From NCBI GenBank assembly GCA_964016885.1, contig OZ024762.1, forward strand, positions 5,394,001-5,458,000: DNA of 64,000 bases. The letters run 5' to 3'. Origin of the DNA: Eledone cirrhosa (Eukaryota). Of the stretch, positions 19,586 to 59,056 are shown piece by piece. A program made the translations under genes and the position numbers. Below the pieces are notes generated by a model. It searched no databases, was not told the origin of the DNA, and saw nothing but the letters and a program-made list of their open reading frames with translations. Position 1 is the stretch's first letter. Each line of letters starts with the position of its first letter.

Positions 19586-20095
19586 TCCCACGCAGGATAT
19601 ATATATATATATACATACATACAAATATGTACATATATATACTGCTAGATCCGAACTGTCCGGATCTAGCTGTCGACACACCGGAGCTCAGCCGTCGGGG
19701 TCCTGAATCTTTTCATATTACCCATTCTACTAGCCCATGTGTGTGTGTGTGTGTGTGTGTGTGACAGCTCACACACAGGTGACAGCTTTAGCTGTCCTCC
19801 TCCAAGGTATATCTCGTTGGAGGTGTCTTGGGTAATTTAATGATAGGGACCCCAGTCCTATCATCTCATTTCTACAGCTGAGTAAACTGGAGCAATGTGA
19901 AATAAAGTGTCTTGCTCAAGGAAACAACACATCACCCGGTCTGAGAATTGAACTCACAACCTTTCGATTGCAAGCCCAATGCTCTAACCACTAAGCCATG
20001 TGCCTTCAAGTATCGAGTACCCCAAGTATCGAATACTCTGGTTGTTTTTGCCACACCCTATCATATATACATATATATTATATATATATATATAT

Positions 20096-30083: not shown

Positions 30084-49166
<19,083 letters not shown>

Positions 49167-50554: not shown

Positions 50555-53500
50555 GTTTTGTATATTTCTATAGCTATGTTTATGCCTAATGTATCCGTGT
50601 TTTTATATATATTTATACATACATGCATAAATATATTGATGATTTCTACAACATTAGAACTGTTTCATTCGTATGAAATCATCCGGAATATTCCCGATGA
50701 TTTCATAAGAATGAAACAGTTATAGTCCCGTATTGAGTACCTTATTTAACTTTGGTTATTTCCCGATCCCCTTCGCGATACCAACTTTAGTTATATATGT
50801 TCTCTTTGTTCCGTTTGCTCTCCATGGAGCGCTGGGTAACGAAAGATCTCTATTCCACACGATCGTCACAGGCCAGGTTTCTGCTCATCGTTTCTGTAGC
50901 AATTTTAATGAAGGTGAAGTTGCTAACCTCACACTCCATCCCTTCCTCCCTTCTCAACTAACGTCGGATTTCGAGCTCAAGGACAATGAAGTTCCGTAAC
51001 TCTGGATAGGGGTCCATTCAGCTAAAACTTAATAAAATAATTAATTGAACTAGTGTGTATTTCATTAGAAGTATCACCCTGAAAGGGTTAAGTTCCTGCA
51101 TGGTTGATTTTTAACCTTTTAATTCTGCCAAGATTTTGGTAATATGTTAGTACCAAGTCAGTTAATTAAAGGTCTTCTTTGGTTACTTCCTTTATTTAAT
51201 TCATATTTCAGTCTTCGGTACCTAAAACCATATATGAGTTTTCTGCAAAGAATATCGATGGAAAAGAAGTGTCCCTGGAGAAATATCGGTAAGTAGTACC
51301 TTGTTGTTGTTTTTATAATCCATACTTTATCCTTGATCCAGCAGACATATGATCAAATGTGTTCCAGCTATGACCATCCAGTCTTTTTCAAGATTTGGTA
51401 CACCCAGGACAAAATTGTTTGCGTTCTTAACTCTTTTGCTACCAACCCACTCAAAACCACCTCTCGTTCTATGAAATAGAATCATTCATTTTAAAGAGTT
51501 CCTGTGTACATCAAAACCATACAATATTATTTAATATAAGACTTAGTTGTTCATTTATGTTATAAATACCATCTTTAAAATGAAATAATTAATAATTTTT
51601 AGTAAAACCCTCCAATACTTCAATAAAATACAGCAGAGCTGGGCTGAGGAAAAAATACAGCTGAAAAAATGTTACAAAACTAATGTTATAGCTGCTGCAC
51701 AAAATTGGGCAGGCCTTAGCAGAGCTCTGAAAACACATGTCAGGTCCTCAGCTGTCTGTCAGTGTCACCTTAACAGACAGGTGAAGACACACCTCTGATC
51801 CTCAGCTGTCTGTCAGTGTCACCTCAACTGACCAGTGAAGACACACACCTGACCCTCAGCTGTCTGTCAGTGTCACCTCAACTGACCAGTGAAGACACAC
51901 CCCTGACCCTCAGCTGTCTGTCAGTGTCACCTCAACTGACCAGTGAAGACACACCCCTGACCCTCAGCTGTCTGTCAGTGTCACCTCAACTGACCAGTGA
52001 AGACACACCCCTGACCCTCAGCTGTCTGTCAGTGTCACCTCAACTGACCAGTGAAGACCCACCCCTGACCCTCAGCTGTCTGTCAGTGTCACCTCAACTG
52101 ACCAGTGAAGACACACCCCTGACCCTCAGCTGTCTGTCAGTGTCACCTCAACTGACCAGTGAAGACACACCTCTGGCCCCTTAGGAGTCAATACCTCCCT
52201 TTAGTGTTTTACTGTTGCATCATTTTGTTCTATATTTTTGTTGTCTATTTTTTAGGGGTCATGTTGCCATAATTGTCAATGTTGCCAGTAAATGAGGCTT
52301 AACTTCCTCTAACTATATCCAGTTAGAGGAGTTGTATGAGAAGTATGGAAAGTCTAAGGGTCTTCGTATTCTGGCCTTCCCATGTAACCAGTTTGGCTTC
52401 CAGGTAAGTTGTCTAATGTGCATCAAGTCTTTGGGGGAAGTGAGTCCCACCATGGAGTCTGCACACACACCTGGGTATCCTCAAAGGTAGAACAGGAGGT
52501 CTGCTAGCTAAATTCAAGATTTCTAGTACTTTGTTAAAAACATAATATACACACTATATTGGGTATCTATTCTTCTCTTTTGATTTTTAACTTCATCAAC
52601 ATTTAACGTCTGTTTTACTTGCTAGCAAGGGTTGGATAGGTCTTCACAGACCGAGTCAATATTCAAGTGGGGGCTACTGACCTCTCAGATGTCCTGGGGG
52701 CCTGAATCTTATTTACATACGATATTGCACTCCACTGAGTGCATTTTATTGTGACACTAGCATTAGGGAGGTTGTCGTGTCTTTGACACAACTGAAGGGG
52801 CCTGACGGCGCTTTGTTTGGCAAGCTTTCTATCGCGGGATGCTCTTCCTATAACCAACCACATTACAGAATGTAGTGGGTGAATTCAAATCCATTCCGAG
52901 GTTAGCTTTGCCTTTCATCCTTACAGAGTCAATAAAATAAAGCACCAGTAATGCACTGGGGTCTATTTAATCGACTTTCTCCTCACCCCAAAAATTGCTG
53001 ACCTTGTGCCTATAGTAGAAATCATTATTTTTGTTAGTTTATGATTCAGTATGTTGTTACAGCTCACACCTAAGAAGGTTTAGCTGGCCTCCTACAAAGT
53101 TGTATCGCAAAAGAGGTTTCTCATATTTCAATGATTGGTGCCCTGGTCTTATGCTGTTGTTTTTATTACTGTTCGTTTCTATGTAGGTTTAATAGATCTA
53201 CTACGAGGTTGTATCTTACAGGAGGTTTCTCAAGTATTTTAAAGATAGGGGCCCAGCCCTATGTTGTAGGTACCGCTCACAGCTATGTAGGTTTAGCTGG
53301 CCTCTAACAAAGTTGTATCTCATAGGTTTATCTGGTGGTTTAAAAATAGGGGCCCCAGTCTTATGATGTTGTTACAGCTCACACCTATGTAGGTTTAGCT
53401 GGCCTCCTACAAGATTGCAACTTATAGGAGATTTCTCAGTTATCTTAATGATAGGGGTCTCTGGTCAGCTTTGCCTTTCAGGATTGATGTTGTTTCTTAA

Positions 53501-56350
53501 ATGTTTTTTTTTTTTTTTTTTTGGTTTATTTTTACCAGGAACCTGGAAGTAATGAAGAAATCAAGAATTATGTTTGCCAAAAATTTCGAGTGAAGTTTGA
53601 TATGTTTAGTAAAGTAAATGTCAATGGAAAGTCAGCTCACCCTTTGTGGACGTTTTTGAAAGCTTCACAGCCTGGGTTTTTAACCAAGTAAGGAATACTC
53701 CCTACTCATTCAGACTTTCTTATTGGTTTCAGTCATTAGACTGCGGGCATACTGGGGCATCACCTTATTGGTTTCAGTCATTAGTCTGCGGCCATGTTGG
53801 GACACCACCTTATTAGTTGCAGTCATTAGACTGCAGCCATGCTGGGGCACCACATTCTTTTTACTGGTTTCAGTTGATAGACTGTGACCTTACTGGTTTC
53901 AGTTAATAGACTGTTGCCATGCTGGGGTACCACCTTACTGGTTTCAATTATTAGACTGTGGTCATGCTGGGGCAACTTTTTTTCAAGCACTGGGCTGCAT
54001 AGAATGTGGTTTGCTTTAGGGCGGGCTGCACTACTAAAACATTGAAGGCAATTTTGAAATTGGACGTGCCATTCAGAAAGCCAAATGGGCCTCATATGGC
54101 TAGTGGGCAGCAGTGTGCTCATGACTGCATTAGACTTTGGCCATGCTAGGGCATTCTGCAACTCTGAGCTATTGTACAGGAGACTTGCCCAAAATGCATG
54201 AAGTGGGATTTGTTTTTTTTTTGTTTTTTTTTTTTAAGTCCATACAAGAAAAAGTAACTCTTTAAAGTGACATAACTCTACACACAGCCATGCAATGAAA
54301 CAAATACTGATGGAATAAACACCTGATTTAATACTGGGTGTCAATGTAACTGACTAAACACTTGAAGTGCTCCAGCGTGGCCAGAACTAGTGCCAGTAAA
54401 AGAACACGATTTCTATAGTAAATGGTTCACTAAGCAAATAGAATATATTATAAACTATAAATTCCTATCTACAGATTCAGTACAGAATTTGTGAGGCACT
54501 TTGAGAGATGTGTATGTAAACACACATCTATGTATGTAAACGCACACATTTATGTATGTAAACGCACACATTTATGTATGTAAACACACATTTATGTATG
54601 TAAACGCACACATCTATGTATGTAAACACACATTTATGTATGTAAACACACATTATGTATGTAAACACACACATCTATGTATGTAAACACACATTTATGT
54701 AAACACATTTATGTAAACACACATTTATATATGTAAACACATTTTTATATGTAAACACACATTTATATATGTAAATACACATTTATATATGTAAATACAC
54801 ATTTATATATGTAAATGCACATTTATATATATAAATACGCATTTATATATGTAAATACACATTTATGTATGTAAACACACACATTTATGTATGTAAACAC
54901 ACACACTTATATATGTAAATACACACACTTATATATGTTAACACATTTATTTATGTAAACCCACATATAAATTTCTATTTACATACATAAATGTGTTTTG
55001 ATATATGAATGTATGTTTACACATAAATGTGTATGTTTACATATATAAATGAGTGCGTTTAAAATATAAATGAGTGTGTTTACATATATGTGTGTGCTTT
55101 CATATATATATATATGTGTGTATGCTTCCATATATAAATATGTGTGTTAACTTAAATAGTTGTTTAAATATATAAACTTGTGTGTTTATATATGTAGGTG
55201 TGTGTTTCCATATTTTACATAAATGTGTGTTTACAAATATATGAGTGTGTTTACATATATAAATTAATGTGTTTACATATATAAATTAATGTGTTTACAT
55301 ATATAAATTAATGTTTACATCTATAAATGTGTGTTTACATATATAAATTAATGTGTCTACGTATATAAATGTGTTTACATCTATAGACTAGTGTGTATAC
55401 ATAGATAAATGTGTGTGTTTACATCTATAGACTAGTGTGTATACATAGATAAATGTGTGTTTACATCTATAGACTAGTGTGTATACATAGATAAATGTGT
55501 GTGTTTACATCTATAGACTAGTGTGTATACATAGATAAATGTGTGTTTACATCTATAGACTAGTGTGTATACATAGATAAATGTGTGTGTTTATATCTAT
55601 AGACTAGTGTGTATACATAGATAAATGTGTGTGTTTATATCCATAAATGTGTGTCTCTGTTTCATCTTGCAGTGATATCAAATGGAATTTGACCAAATTC
55701 CTCATCAACAAGGAAGGTGTCCCTGTTAAACGTTACGGCCCAAAAACTGCCCCAAAGGTAACTTAGAACGTTTTTGTATTCCATCCAGAATTACAAGATG
55801 TCTAACCCCCCCCCCCCCCTTATCTACCTATCAATCTATCTATATATATCCACCTACCTATCTATCTATATATCTACTTACCTATCTACCTACCCATCCA
55901 CCCACCCATCTATCTATCTATCTATCCACCTACGTATCTACCTGTCACTCCAGCTATCCATCCACCTCTATATCTACCTTTCTACCCACACACCTCTATA
56001 TATACCTTTCTACCCACCTACCTCTACATCTACCTTTCTACCCACCTACCTCTATATCTACCTGCCTACCCACACACCTCTATATCTACCTTTCTATCCA
56101 CCTACCTCTATATCTACCTTTCTATCCACCTACCTCTATATCTACCTTTCTACCCACCCACCTCTATATCTACCTGCCTACCCACACACCTCTATATCTA
56201 CCTGTTTATCCACCCACCTGTCTATCCACCTACCTCTATATCTACCTGTATATCCACCTATTTACCTCTGTGCACTTGTCTTACTTATTTATCTCATTAT
56301 TTTACCTGTCTTTTCAGGAAATAGAGAAAGATTTAGCCAACTATTTGTAA
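49621..56350 (+). CDS. GPX4: Phospholipid-hydroperoxide glutathione peroxidase (selenoprotein), 6 coding exons, 186 aa
   Basis: Exons 49621-49689, 51212-51288, 52256-52403, 53539-53687, 55673-55757, 56318-56350; GT-AG, phases consistent; [30 protein letters not shown]; SECIS downstream. Confidence 0.93.
51212..51288 (+). CDS. GPX4: GPX4 exon 2
   Basis: [25 protein letters not shown](R)|GTAAGT. Confidence 0.93.
51745..52175. repeat. 54-bp tandem minisatellite (~8 copies), GPX4 intron 2
   Basis: Unit CTCAGCTGTCTGTCAGTGTCACCTCAACTGACCAGTGAAGACACACCCCTGACC. Confidence 0.95.
52256..52403 (+). CDS. GPX4: GPX4 exon 3 with Sec codon TGA at 52293-52295
   Basis: [49 protein letters not shown]. Confidence 0.95.
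53539..53687 (+). CDS. GPX4: GPX4 exon 4
   Basis: [49 protein letters not shown]. Confidence 0.95.
54510..55655. repeat. AT-rich minisatellite that reverses orientation near 54970
   Basis: ATGTAAACACACATTT units, then AAATGTGTGTTTACAT units. Confidence 0.85.
55673..55757 (+). CDS. GPX4: GPX4 exon 5
   Basis: (N)[28 protein letters not shown]|GTAACT. Confidence 0.95.
56318..56350 (+). CDS. GPX4: GPX4 exon 6 (last coding)
   Basis: TTTTCAG|[13 protein letters not shown], homologous to vertebrate VIEKDLPHYF. Confidence 0.9.
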   Translation, partial: EIEKDLANYL

Positions 56351-56493: not shown

Positions 56494-56566
56494 TTGATAT
56501 CATTTATGATGGATACTTTCTGAAACCTTACCTGGGATAGAAAATTCCTGAATTCACCTGTATTAC
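56494..56566 (+). promoter_or_regulatory. SECIS element (type II) in GPX4 3'UTR
   Basis: ATGAT(56506)-12 nt GGATACTTTCTG-AAA-ministem CCT/GGG-ATAGAAAATTCC-TGAA(56549-56552); helix GGA/TCC and TTTCTG/TAGAAA. Confidence 0.88.
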
Positions 56567-56604
56567 TCACCTTGGTCAACACTGCTTCTATGTCTATCTG
56601 TCTG

Positions 56605-56662
<58 letters not shown>

Positions 56663-56675
56663 ATATATATATTAT

Positions 56676-57027
56676 ATACAATATATTAACAAATGGAAAC
56701 TATATTTATAAAACTATATTTATTTCATTATACATATTTCAAGGACACCAAAGCAAATTATGGTGCACTTTCATCAGATAAAATATAATATAGATCAGTT
56801 TTATAAACAAATATTGACATACCCTTAAAGAATGCGACCATGTCGGGAGCTTCCAACCGACATGGTCGCATTCTTTAAGGGTATGTCAATATTTGTTTAT
56901 AAAACTGATCTATATTATATTTTATCTGATGAAAGTGCACCATAATTTGCTTTGGTGTCCTTGAAATATGTATAATGAAATAAATATGGTTTTATAAATA
57001 TAGTTTCCATTTGTTAATATATTGTAT
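56676..57027. repeat. Inverted repeat, 171-bp arms, 10-nt loop
   Basis: 56676-56846 is the reverse complement of 56857-57027 with one difference seen; loop GAGCTTCCAA. Confidence 0.95.
56918..56982 (+). ncRNA. Type I hammerhead motif, sense to GPX4 (mirror copy on minus at 56721-56785)
   Basis: TATTTTAT-CTGATGA(56926)-AAGtGCACCA/TGGTGTcCTT-GAA-ATATGTAT-A(56974)-ATGAAATA. Confidence 0.72.
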
Positions 57028-57129
57028 TTTTACTTCAATAATTTGTTGAGTGCTTTATATCAGTTATAAAAATATTTGCTTGTTGTATCCCAACAAATTA
57101 AATATAACTTCTACATATATATATATATT

Positions 57130-57164
<35 letters not shown>

Positions 57165-57559
57165 ATATATATATATACCCTTATAAAAAGGAAGTTTGTT
57201 TGTACATTGACTGTTATAAAATAGAATTGATAATAATTAAGGTTTTTCATGTGTTTTCAATTAAAAATATATTTAGATGTTATTTATCCTTTTTTTTTTT
57301 TTTTTTTTTTGCACAATCAGAACCTCACAAATTCAAACAAAATGTGAAGGCTATCTTAAAAAGCATAAATAAAATAAAATAAAATAAAATAATACATTTA
57401 CCATTGGTTTATGAATGAATGAAGAATTTACTTACTCATTTCTGTAATTCAGGAAAGTTGATTTAAATGTGTAAGTGTGGTAAATATATACATATACACC
57501 AGGAACGAAACTCCCACTGTCACTGCTTCCACCTCTTCCGATCTCCCCATCAATCACTA

Positions 57560-57830
57560 TTATGAGCAAATGGGGCCCACGTGTTGGCCGCCCAGCAGCC
57601 CAGGCGATCGGAATAGAGGATGGTGAGGGAGACGCGCTGGAAAATCCATTCCAGCTGCGGATAGCCAACTCTGTGCCAAAGGTGGTGAGTTGGGAGGTAG
57701 CCCTAGAGCCAACGACACCAGAAGTCTCCATTGCTATGGGCTCAACAACAAACCTGTCGGAGAGTGACCGATATTTGGAGAGTTTACGCTCCTTGGCCCA
57801 AAGTGTGGCAGAGCCTGAGTTAATTAAAAT
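57560..57830 (-). mobile_element. Restriction-like endonuclease C-terminus of a CRE/NeSL-type non-LTR element
   Basis: AKERKLSKYRSLSDRFVVEPIAMETSGVVG motif (K..KY...F.P.A.ET.G). Confidence 0.65.
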
Positions 57831-59056
57831 TTTTACACTGTAGCTTTCACCAACTTTTACCTCTATGGCAGTAGGATCTTGTTTGAGGGAGATTTGTTTT
57901 CTATTTCTTTTAGGTACACCAACAGTTATAGTGGCTTCTATGACATACATACATACATACACACACATGCATGTGTGTGGGTTTGTGTGTGTAAGACTGT
58001 TCGCTGTGATTTGAAATGGATTTTGCTCATATTTCTAGTAGATGGAGGTGTCACATACAACCTTTCCTTTTTGCTTCATATATATATATAGTTATGGAGG
58101 CACATGGCATAGTGGTTAGAGCATTGGCCTTGCAATCGAAAGGTTGTGAGTTCAATTCTCAGACCGGGTGATGTGTTGTTTCCTTGAGCAAGACACTTTA
58201 TTTCACATTGCTCCAGTTTACTCAGCTGTAGAAATGAGATGATAGGACTGGGGTCCATATCATTCTACTGCAAAGTGGATGTGTAGGCGCCACGGCAAAA
58301 AAGCACCCAGCACTCACTGTAAATGAGGTTGGTGTTAGGAAGGGCATCCAGCTGTAGAAATCAAGCCAAAAATCAGTTCCTGTCCCACCCTTGCAAGCAG
58401 GGAAAAGCGGACGTAAAATGAAATGATGAAATGATAATGATGATATATATATATACATACATGAGACAGTAGACTGGGATATATATATATATATACATAC
58501 ATACATGAGACAGTAGACTGGGATATATATGTCTCTAACTTAAGTACGGTGATAAACACATACACACACACACTTGCCTCTAATATAAGAACACTGAGAC
58601 ACACATGCACATGTGTGCACACACACAGACTCCTTATGACTTTTGTGGAAGAGAGAGAGAAAGAGAAGTAACGTTAAGAAGCATTTAATAAATAAATAAA
58701 AGTTATCGAACTATGCTATCATTTTTGTTTTCTTTCTCTCTCTTCCCTAATCCCCCCCCCCTCTCTTTCTCTACAGAATGAAGAACAAAAAAACAAGTTG
58801 TGGGAGGAGGAAGGGGAGTATTGGAAGGGAGGGTTTAATGTCCCCAGGGGTTTCATTATTGATTTTTATTGAAATCCAATTAGCCAGTCCTGTTTCTGAA
58901 TATTAGCTTAAACCGTGTGTAAAGTTTCATCTGGATTGAATCACTGGTTTAAATGCCAACTGGTTACACACAGACAGACAGAAATTGCCATTTATATAGT
59001 AGATTTCTGGCAATATTGTAACAATATGACACTCCCCAAATATAACTATATATATT

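What the first reader, a model, noticed from the sequence alone, without database searches (positions are those of the whole stretch)
56494..57027. Selenoprotein 3'UTR cassette: SECIS followed by a 171-bp hairpin that sequesters a hammerhead ribozyme and the first AATAAA
Seen: about 110 nt after the SECIS begins a fold-back with 171-bp arms (one difference, a G-U pair in RNA). The right arm holds a complete sense hammerhead motif with predicted cleavage after A56974. The first canonical AATAAA after the GPX4 stop (56979-56984) lies 5 nt past that site and overlaps hammerhead stem I; only weaker TATAAA/AATATA variants occur earlier. Established: hammerheads with a short palindromic stem III are typical of Penelope-like elements and cleave best as dimers; long dsRNA is an ADAR/Dicer substrate, and coleoid cephalopods edit heavily. 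Inference: if transcribed, hairpin versus ribozyme folding could control poly(A) choice, stability or editing of an anti-ferroptosis mRNA. It may equally be a recent, neutral insertion.
Basis: partly seen in the sequence, partly recalled or inferred. Interest (0 to 1): 0.8.

Follow-up and report, generated by a model that had tools for sequence, protein, structure and literature searches.

The report
Young Penelope retrotransposon fold-back behind GPX4
The long hairpin, its hammerhead ribozyme motif and the AATAAA behind this glutathione peroxidase gene all belong to one recently inserted, inverted fragment of a jumping element found in thousands of copies in the genome, so it is most likely an ordinary insertion and not a purpose-built switch for the gene.

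Summary
In detail: 171-bp arms with one G-U difference, a complete type I hammerhead core, the first AATAAA 5 nt past the predicted cut, and a SECIS-like stem about 110 nt upstream of a Sec-GPX4-like gene's insertion site. The interpretation mostly does not. The hairpin is a 5'-truncated, head-to-head inverted insertion (about 56676-57115) of a Hydra-clade Penelope-like retrotransposon in a (TA)n tract. The hammerhead's 5' half occurs in at least 3,944 exact copies. In 58 unselected insertions, 29 are inverted and 9 are fold-backs with the hammerhead in both arms. The AATAAA sits at the same +5 position in 39 of 46 intact hammerheads elsewhere. Full-length copies put this sequence ahead of an RT + GIY-YIG ORF with the Hydra motifs. 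Both arms share a minority variant, so they were likely copied from one template. In a read-through RNA the duplex (-270 kcal/mol) is predicted to abolish hammerhead folding (about -17), so there is no plausible switch. No RNA data were available, so whether the GPX4 mRNA includes the hairpin is open. Verdict: known kind, low interest.

The parts
52257..52403 (+). GPX4-like exon with in-frame TGA (Sec) at 52293-52295
   Evidence: Pfam GSHPx E 8.5e-19; sequence
56318..56350 (+). last coding exon of the GPX4-like gene, stop TAA 56348-56350
   Evidence: splice acceptor and frame read from sequence
56495..56565 (+). host SECIS-like element (type II-like, AUGA 56506, AAA 56523, UGAA 56549); single copy, not part of the transposon
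   Evidence: descriptor hit, 0 of 300 shuffles; only self match over this part in the own genome; no Rfam hit
56611..56675 (.). (CT)n then (TA)n microsatellite, left side of the insertion target
   Evidence: sequence
56676..56846 (-). inverted, 5'-truncated pLTR copy ending at the family's short end; carries an antisense hammerhead
   Evidence: 1,586 exact short-end/(TA)n junctions genome-wide
56844..56859 (+). inversion junction: 3-nt CGG microhomology (56844-56846) pairing with CCG 56857-56859 around a 10-nt loop
   Evidence: window versus family sequence
56844..57027 (+). sense pLTR copy of the Hydra-clade PLE
   Evidence: 47 matches over 168-171 nt at 97-100% among 40 scored of 1,555 candidates; lies upstream of the RT-EN ORF in long copies
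56910..56989 (+). type I hammerhead motif of the pLTR, short palindromic stem III, predicted cut after A56974; AATAAA 56979-56984 is in stem I
57028..57115 (+). 87-nt PLE tail up to the family's long end; contains ATTAAA at 57097
   Evidence: 635 exact long-end/(TA)n junctions
57116..57176 (.). (TA)n tract, right side of the insertion target
   Evidence: sequence

Best explanation
This is an inverted, 5'-truncated copy of a high-copy Penelope-like retrotransposon (Hydra-clade motifs) sitting in a (TA)n tract behind the GPX4-like gene's SECIS-like element, likely a recent and neutral insertion whose hairpin would keep the element's own hammerhead from folding. Shown: family membership, the two fixed element ends, the (TA)n target, the 3-nt junction microhomology, and the recurrence of the same head-to-head fold-back across the genome. 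Inferred: the element's GIY-YIG nuclease nicked the (TA)n tract; reverse transcription started at the two internal start sites (long end and short end); the two products, or one cDNA snapping back on CGG/CCG, joined into a palindrome from a single template. The hammerhead serves the transposon RNA, likely as a dimer. If GPX4 transcription reads through (about 60%, since no poly(A) hexamer precedes the insertion), the RNA would carry a stable 171-bp duplex that ADAR would likely edit, with the ribozyme off and the AATAAA buried.
For: High copy and young: 1,555 candidates, full-length hits 97-100%; 3,712 + 232 exact matches to the hammerhead 5' half, control 0. The sense copy differs from the majority of the closest copies at 3 of 271 positions. 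The same sequence precedes an ORF with RT and GIY-YIG in 6 of 29 RT-anchored loci in sense orientation (L043, L044, L046, L048, L050, L051). Hydra motifs in those 29 loci: DKT 20 versus DKG 1, CxCX5C 25, CxxC-E 23, CxH 26, IRW[KR] 7 (many loci do not reach the N-terminus), canonical CxxC inside GIY-YIG 1. Architecture in 58 unselected insertions: 29 inverted, 24 of those 29 pair one short with one long end, 9 have arms of 100 bp or more that cover the hammerhead, 4 of 150 bp or more. AATAAA at +5 in 39 of 46 intact cores. The minority T56936 variant (232 of 3,944, 5.9%) is in both arms; among the first 100 listed T matches 18 form 9 minus/plus pairs within 330 bp, against about 1 expected if arms were independent (counted by eye). 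Folding: -270 versus -16.6 kcal/mol, hammerhead pairs 0.0000 in the hairpin. Inverted pLTR plus one-sided tail is the described PLE structure (PMC8557442, PMC3846280); two RT start sites define the tail (PMC11167929).
Against: No RNA data and no second individual were available, so neutrality and recency are inferred from copy number and divergence, not from polymorphism or expression. A generic insertion can still change a host mRNA. Clade assignment is by motifs only, with no tree against reference PLEs. Pfam did not call the RT and GIY-YIG scored below its cut-off (20.6 versus 22.6 bits). The shared variant could also come from gene conversion between arms; one discordant pair exists (C1:32764543 T / 32764649 C). 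The tail (87 nt) is longer than the 30-40 bp described.
Confidence: 0.85

Rival explanations
1. Same origin, but not neutral: the insertion lies inside the GPX4 3'UTR and its long duplex changes mRNA level, editing, localisation or poly(A) site, as inverted repeats in other UTRs do. The ribozyme plays no part.
For: No poly(A) hexamer between stop and insertion, so transcription probably reaches it. Repeats in squid 3'UTRs are frequently edited (PMC9068888, passages).
Against: No expression evidence. The downstream AATAAA cluster (57368-57388) belongs to another dispersed repeat, so the native poly(A) site is unknown and transcripts could end at weak signals early in the left arm (TATAAA 56707).
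Confidence: 0.12
2. One reading: alternative folding between hairpin and hammerhead controls cleavage and polyadenylation of GPX4 mRNA.
For: The isolated right arm forms stems I and II (pair probabilities 0.67-1.0); the core is intact and stems covary across subfamilies; host-mRNA hammerheads exist (Clec2, PMC2950038).
Against: The left arm is made first and pairs across a 10-nt loop; energy gap above 250 kcal/mol; stem III is 2 bp as a monomer and only -2.2 kcal/mol as a dimer. Metazoan PLE hammerheads show no monomer cleavage (PMC4209133) or need the element's protein (PMC11167929). The AATAAA overlap is a family trait (39 of 46).
Confidence: 0.02
3. The palindrome is an assembly or library fold-back artefact.
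For: Near-perfect palindromes in long-read assemblies can be artefacts (own knowledge); raw reads were not checked.
Against: The two outer ends coincide with the family's two fixed termini, each followed by (TA)n; the flanks differ; the arms differ at one base; the same architecture with varied breakpoints recurs at many loci.
Confidence: 0.01

Closest known systems
Hydra clade of C-terminal EN+ Penelope-like elements (Craig et al. 2021, PMC8557442)
   Same: RW[KR], DKT, CxCX5C linker, CxxC and CxH flanking the conserved E/N, no CCHH-type CxxC in the nuclease, hammerhead in the pLTR, (TA)n targets, single ORF.
   Different: This locus is a non-coding 440-nt fragment. The family is very abundant and young here, and its tail is about 87 nt, against 30-40 bp described for PLEs. 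The paper names cnidarians, a hemichordate and a few other aquatic invertebrates including Mollusca; the passages read do not name a cephalopod family.
Inverted-pLTR insertions of Penelope elements (Adineta vaga, PMC3846280; general scheme in PMC8557442)
   Same: Head-to-head inverted 5'-truncated copy, palindrome at the junction, tail on one side only.
   Different: No target-site duplication can be read here because the target is a microsatellite; no ORF between the repeats.
Metazoan PLE hammerheads (Cervera and de la Pena 2014, PMC4209133; PAc, PMC11167929)
   Same: Type I topology, long helix II, tiny palindromic helix III; opposite-strand pairs 100-700 bp apart were already noted in Schistosoma.
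   Different: Stem I is long (8+7 bp predicted); the cleavage triplet is AUA; activity untested.
Clec2 3'UTR hammerheads of mammals (review PMC2950038)
   Same: Hammerhead motif downstream of a host coding sequence.
   Different: Clec2 ribozymes are conserved across species and active in reporters; this one is a fresh multicopy transposon part predicted to be locked in a duplex.
Non-LTR retrozymes (bioRxiv 10.64898/2026.07.22.740005)
   Same: Short non-coding PLE-related sequence with a type I hammerhead.
   Different: Retrozymes are head-to-tail tandems; this is a head-to-head inversion of a truncated autonomous element.

Membership tests
EN+ Penelope-like element | pLTR upstream of a single ORF with RT and C-terminal GIY-YIG | tested here: met
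   pLTR then ORF (ATG at L048:870) with YRDD and GIY-YIG; Pfam GIY-YIG E 5.5e-4, below its cut-off; homologues carry PF01541
EN+ Penelope-like element | 5'-truncated copies with adjacent inverted copy and one-sided tail | tested here: met
   29 of 58 inverted; 24 of 29 pair a short with a long end
EN+ Penelope-like element | hammerhead motif in the pLTR | tested here: met
Hydra clade | DKG changed to DKT; RWK-like motif | tested here: met
   DKT 20, DKG 1, IRW[KR] 7 of 29 loci; this family reads RWR
Hydra clade | CxCX5C linker; CxxC and CxH beside E/N; no CCHH | tested here: met
   25, 23 and 26 of 29; CxxC inside GIY-YIG in 1 of 29
Hydra clade | insertion into (TA)n | tested here: met
   flanks of loci chosen by arm sequence alone. 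The counts had TA in the pattern, so they show abundance, not preference
Hydra clade | RT phylogeny groups with Hydra references | not tested
   no reference set fetched
Neptune/Nematis clade | CX2-5CxxC linker and CCHH nuclease | tested here: not met
   CX2-5CxxC before the GIY motif in 0 of 29 loci
Type I hammerhead ribozyme | conserved core and three stems with covariation | tested here: met
   34 of 45 aligned segments have an intact core; stem II pair 2 AT 30/GC 3, pair 5 GC 20/AT 7, pair 6 CG 26/TA 7; stem I pair 2 AT 30/GC 2; stem III palindromic in 33 of 34. The 45 were hand-picked from 85 distinct segments to favour diverged ones; no shuffle control
Type I hammerhead ribozyme | self-cleavage | not testable with these tools
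   needs an in vitro assay
Host-mRNA regulatory ribozyme (Clec2-like) | locus-specific, able to fold in the transcript | tested here: not met
   thousands of copies; pair probabilities 0.0000 in context
Host-mRNA regulatory ribozyme (Clec2-like) | present in the mature mRNA and conserved in relatives | not testable with these tools
   no RNA holder listed; the genome has no relatives in the collection
Eukaryotic SECIS | AUGA/GA core, 11-12 nt helix II, apical AA, in-frame UGA upstream | tested here: met
   Rfam negative; RNAfold does not give the textbook fold unconstrained

The most novel reading that the evidence does not exclude
A days-old (in evolutionary terms) Hydra retrotransposon fold-back has landed inside the 3'UTR of a Sec-GPX4 mRNA and acts as a segregating cis-regulatory allele: a 171-bp duplex 110 nt from the SECIS that is hyper-edited or diced, hides the first AATAAA and changes selenoprotein output. 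The several hundred sister fold-backs would be a genome-wide source of such long dsRNA alleles.
Probability: 0.12. Interest if true: 0.5.

Novelty: new member of a known kind. Interest (0 to 1): 0.18.

Why it matters
As a locus it is ordinary: one of probably a few hundred similar fold-backs (8 and 9 close minus/plus pairs per 100 listed matches, scale to roughly 300). It would matter modestly if it is in the GPX4 mRNA, as a natural test of how a long duplex next to a SECIS affects Sec decoding and stability. The family is the more useful part: a young, abundant Hydra PLE with two sharp ends and arms that share rare variants gives a large natural data set on how PLE inverted ends form, which is still an open mechanistic question (PMC8557442, PMC11167929).

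Tried and rejected
Rfam at gathering and at E<=10: no SECIS or hammerhead family. Sequencing-run search with the downstream flank 57177-57460: 5 runs, no RNA holder listed; this is no evidence either way. Laying 4 of the 5 runs on 57177-57935: X1 (RNA is a guess) laid nothing; X2, X3 and X5 gave contigs over 26 of 30 bins with no clustered ends, of unknown kind and swollen by other repeat copies, so neither the poly(A) site nor presence/absence of the insertion could be read. My first idea that the 57368-57388 AATAAA cluster is the native poly(A) signal is weakened: it lies in a second dispersed repeat starting at 57263. My first clade guess, Neptune, was dropped on motifs. The idea that the SECIS came with the transposon (as in Naiads) was rejected: it is single copy and outside the element. 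A homologue search with GPX exon 3 gave one unnamed protein, so the host taxon is not shown; the nearest named relatives of the PLE ORF are from Solemya velum and Argonauta hians, compatible with a mollusc. Three look-ups in earlier findings were empty. Paper searches for this locus (GPX + SECIS + octopus; hammerhead + Clec2 + UTR + retrotransposon) found nothing on it; the library lacks most subscription papers and no supplements were read, including the Hydra family list of PMC8557442, which may already hold this family.

Full report
Observation. The inverted repeat is there as described: arms 56676-56846 and 56857-57027, 171 nt, 10-nt loop, one difference (G56988 against T56715). The right arm holds a type I hammerhead: CUGAUGA 56926-56932, GAAA 56963-56966, U56973-A56974, stem I 56910-56925/56975-56989. 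The first AATAAA after the stop is at 56979; none of 12 hexamer variants lies between 56341 and the insertion. The upstream gene is a Sec glutathione peroxidase: in-frame TGA 52293-52295, Pfam GSHPx, exon 3 closer to GPX4/PHGPx than to GPX7 or GPX1. A SECIS-like motif with its core at 56506-56552 is the only hit of my descriptor downstream of the stop, and 0 of 300 shuffles gave one. Rfam detects neither RNA.

What it is. The arm is a young dispersed repeat: 1,555 candidates, 40 scored, 47 matches of 168-171 nt at 97-100%. A 31-nt piece of the hammerhead has 3,712 exact matches with the common base and 232 with the window's variant, control 0. Copies stop at two fixed places followed by (TA)n: a short end (1,586 exact junctions) and a long end 87 nt further on (635). 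The window's left arm stops at the short end and the right arm runs to the long end near 57115, so the insertion is about 56676-57115 inside a (CT)n(TA)n tract. A second, solo copy with its own hammerhead lies in the same window at 31049-31214, and a tail piece at 35926-36032.

The parent element. Locus L018 joins the arm to an inverted RT and GIY-YIG fragment. That RT has 29,475 candidates in the genome, 150 scored. In 6 of the 29 other RT-anchored loci the arm-plus-tail lies in sense upstream of the ORF, as a pLTR; in L048 the hammerhead core starts at 630, the ends fall at 731 and about 820, and the ATG is at 870. Motif counts in those 29 loci fit the Hydra clade as defined in PMC8557442 (passages read): DKT 20 versus DKG 1, CxCX5C 25, CxxC before E 23, CxH 26, IRW[KR] 7, Neptune-type CX2-5CxxC 0. 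No tree was built.

The hairpin is the family's usual shape. I took the first 30 loci listed for each end pattern (all on contig C1) and dropped two duplicates. Of 58 insertions, 29 have an adjacent inverted piece; 24 of these pair one short end with one long end; 9 have arms of 100 bp or more that cover the hammerhead (one of them, L095, aligns poorly arm to arm), and 4 have 150 bp or more. In 10 of the 29 the inverted piece is the tail alone, abutting the short end, which resembles twin priming (recalled from L1 work, not read here). In the lists minus/plus pairs within 330 bp occur per 100 matches (counted by eye), which scales to roughly 300 such fold-backs. AATAAA lies at exactly +5 from the predicted cut in 39 of 46 intact cores. 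So hairpin, ribozyme and AATAAA arrive together with the element. Inverted 5'-truncated copies with a one-sided tail are the described PLE structure (PMC8557442; PMC3846280, passages), and the tail has been tied to two internal RT start sites (PMC11167929, parts 1-2 of 4 read).

How it likely formed. The junction has a 3-nt CGG microhomology closing the 10-nt loop. Both arms carry T56936, found in 5.9% of exact matches. T-T pairs account for 18 of the first 100 T matches, against about 1 expected for independent arms, though one discordant pair was seen. A single template, by snap-back or by two primings on the same source RNA, is therefore likely; conversion between arms is not excluded. The sense copy differs from the majority of its closest relatives at 3 of 271 positions and the arms at 1 of 171, so the insertion is young.

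Would the ribozyme act? The motif looks selected within the family: 34 of 45 aligned segments keep the core, stems I and II show changes on both sides between subfamilies, and stem III stays palindromic in 33 of 34 (segments hand-picked for diversity, no shuffle control). Alone, the right arm forms stems I and II (probabilities 0.67-1.0, -16.6 kcal/mol). In the hairpin (-270 kcal/mol) those probabilities are 0.0000. Stem III is 2 bp as a monomer and -2.2 kcal/mol as a dimer. Metazoan PLE hammerheads gave no monomer cleavage and low dimer cleavage (PMC4209133, parts 1-2 of 4 read), and the anole element's needs its protein. A reversible switch is thus implausible; this is a prediction, not an assay.

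Is it in the mRNA? Unknown. The lack of any hexamer before the insertion makes read-through into it more likely than not, but the native poly(A) site cannot be placed: the next AATAAA cluster (57368-57388) is inside another dispersed repeat. The run search and read laying gave no usable RNA. If read through, the duplex would be a likely ADAR substrate; repeats in squid 3'UTRs are frequently edited (PMC9068888, passages). That would be a generic consequence of an inverted repeat, unlike the conserved, active Clec2 hammerheads (PMC2950038, passages). Penelope-like elements are already reported as recently active in Octopus vulgaris (PMC13282606, passages). Retrozymes are tandem, not inverted (bioRxiv 10.64898/2026.07.22.740005, part 1 of 5 read).

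Verdict. Real feature, explained as a new member of a known kind: a Hydra-type PLE fold-back insertion (confidence 0.85 that it is also neutral). Regulatory dsRNA allele 0.12, ribozyme switch 0.02, artefact 0.01. Interest 0.18.

Noticed in passing
window 31049-31214 (+): Solo copy of the same Hydra PLE pLTR (97.6% to L048) with an intact hammerhead core, between (TA)n tracts and with no inverted partner; its AATAAA is changed to AATAAG.
   Followed up: partly
window 35926-36032 (+): Older (80%) tail-only fragment of a related PLE ending at the long end before (TA)n.
   Followed up: partly
window 57263-58090: Second dispersed repeat (82-92% to other loci, 711 candidates) holding the T run and the AATAAA cluster; two stop-free frames without Pfam match; class not determined.
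   Followed up: partly
window 19941-19998 (-), 41173-41230 (+), about 58100-58300 (+): tRNA-derived SINE-like heads; the first two score as weak tRNA in Rfam, the third was seen by eye.
   Followed up: no
window 55674-55700: The GPX motif usually recalled as WNF reads WNL here ([10 protein letters not shown]).
   Followed up: no
G000 loci L061-L120: Inversion breakpoints cluster near reference 543-554 (the CCGGGAG/GGAGCTTCC palindrome) and near the short end, and tail-only inverted pieces abut the short end; useful for PLE integration models.
   Followed up: partly
L069, L084, L091 and L002, L077, L083: At least two diverged sister subfamilies with differently composed hammerhead stem II but the same core and palindromic stem III.
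   Followed up: partly
window 51750-52180 and 55824-56279: Intronic tandem repeats in the GPX gene (about 47-nt and 28-nt units).
   Followed up: no
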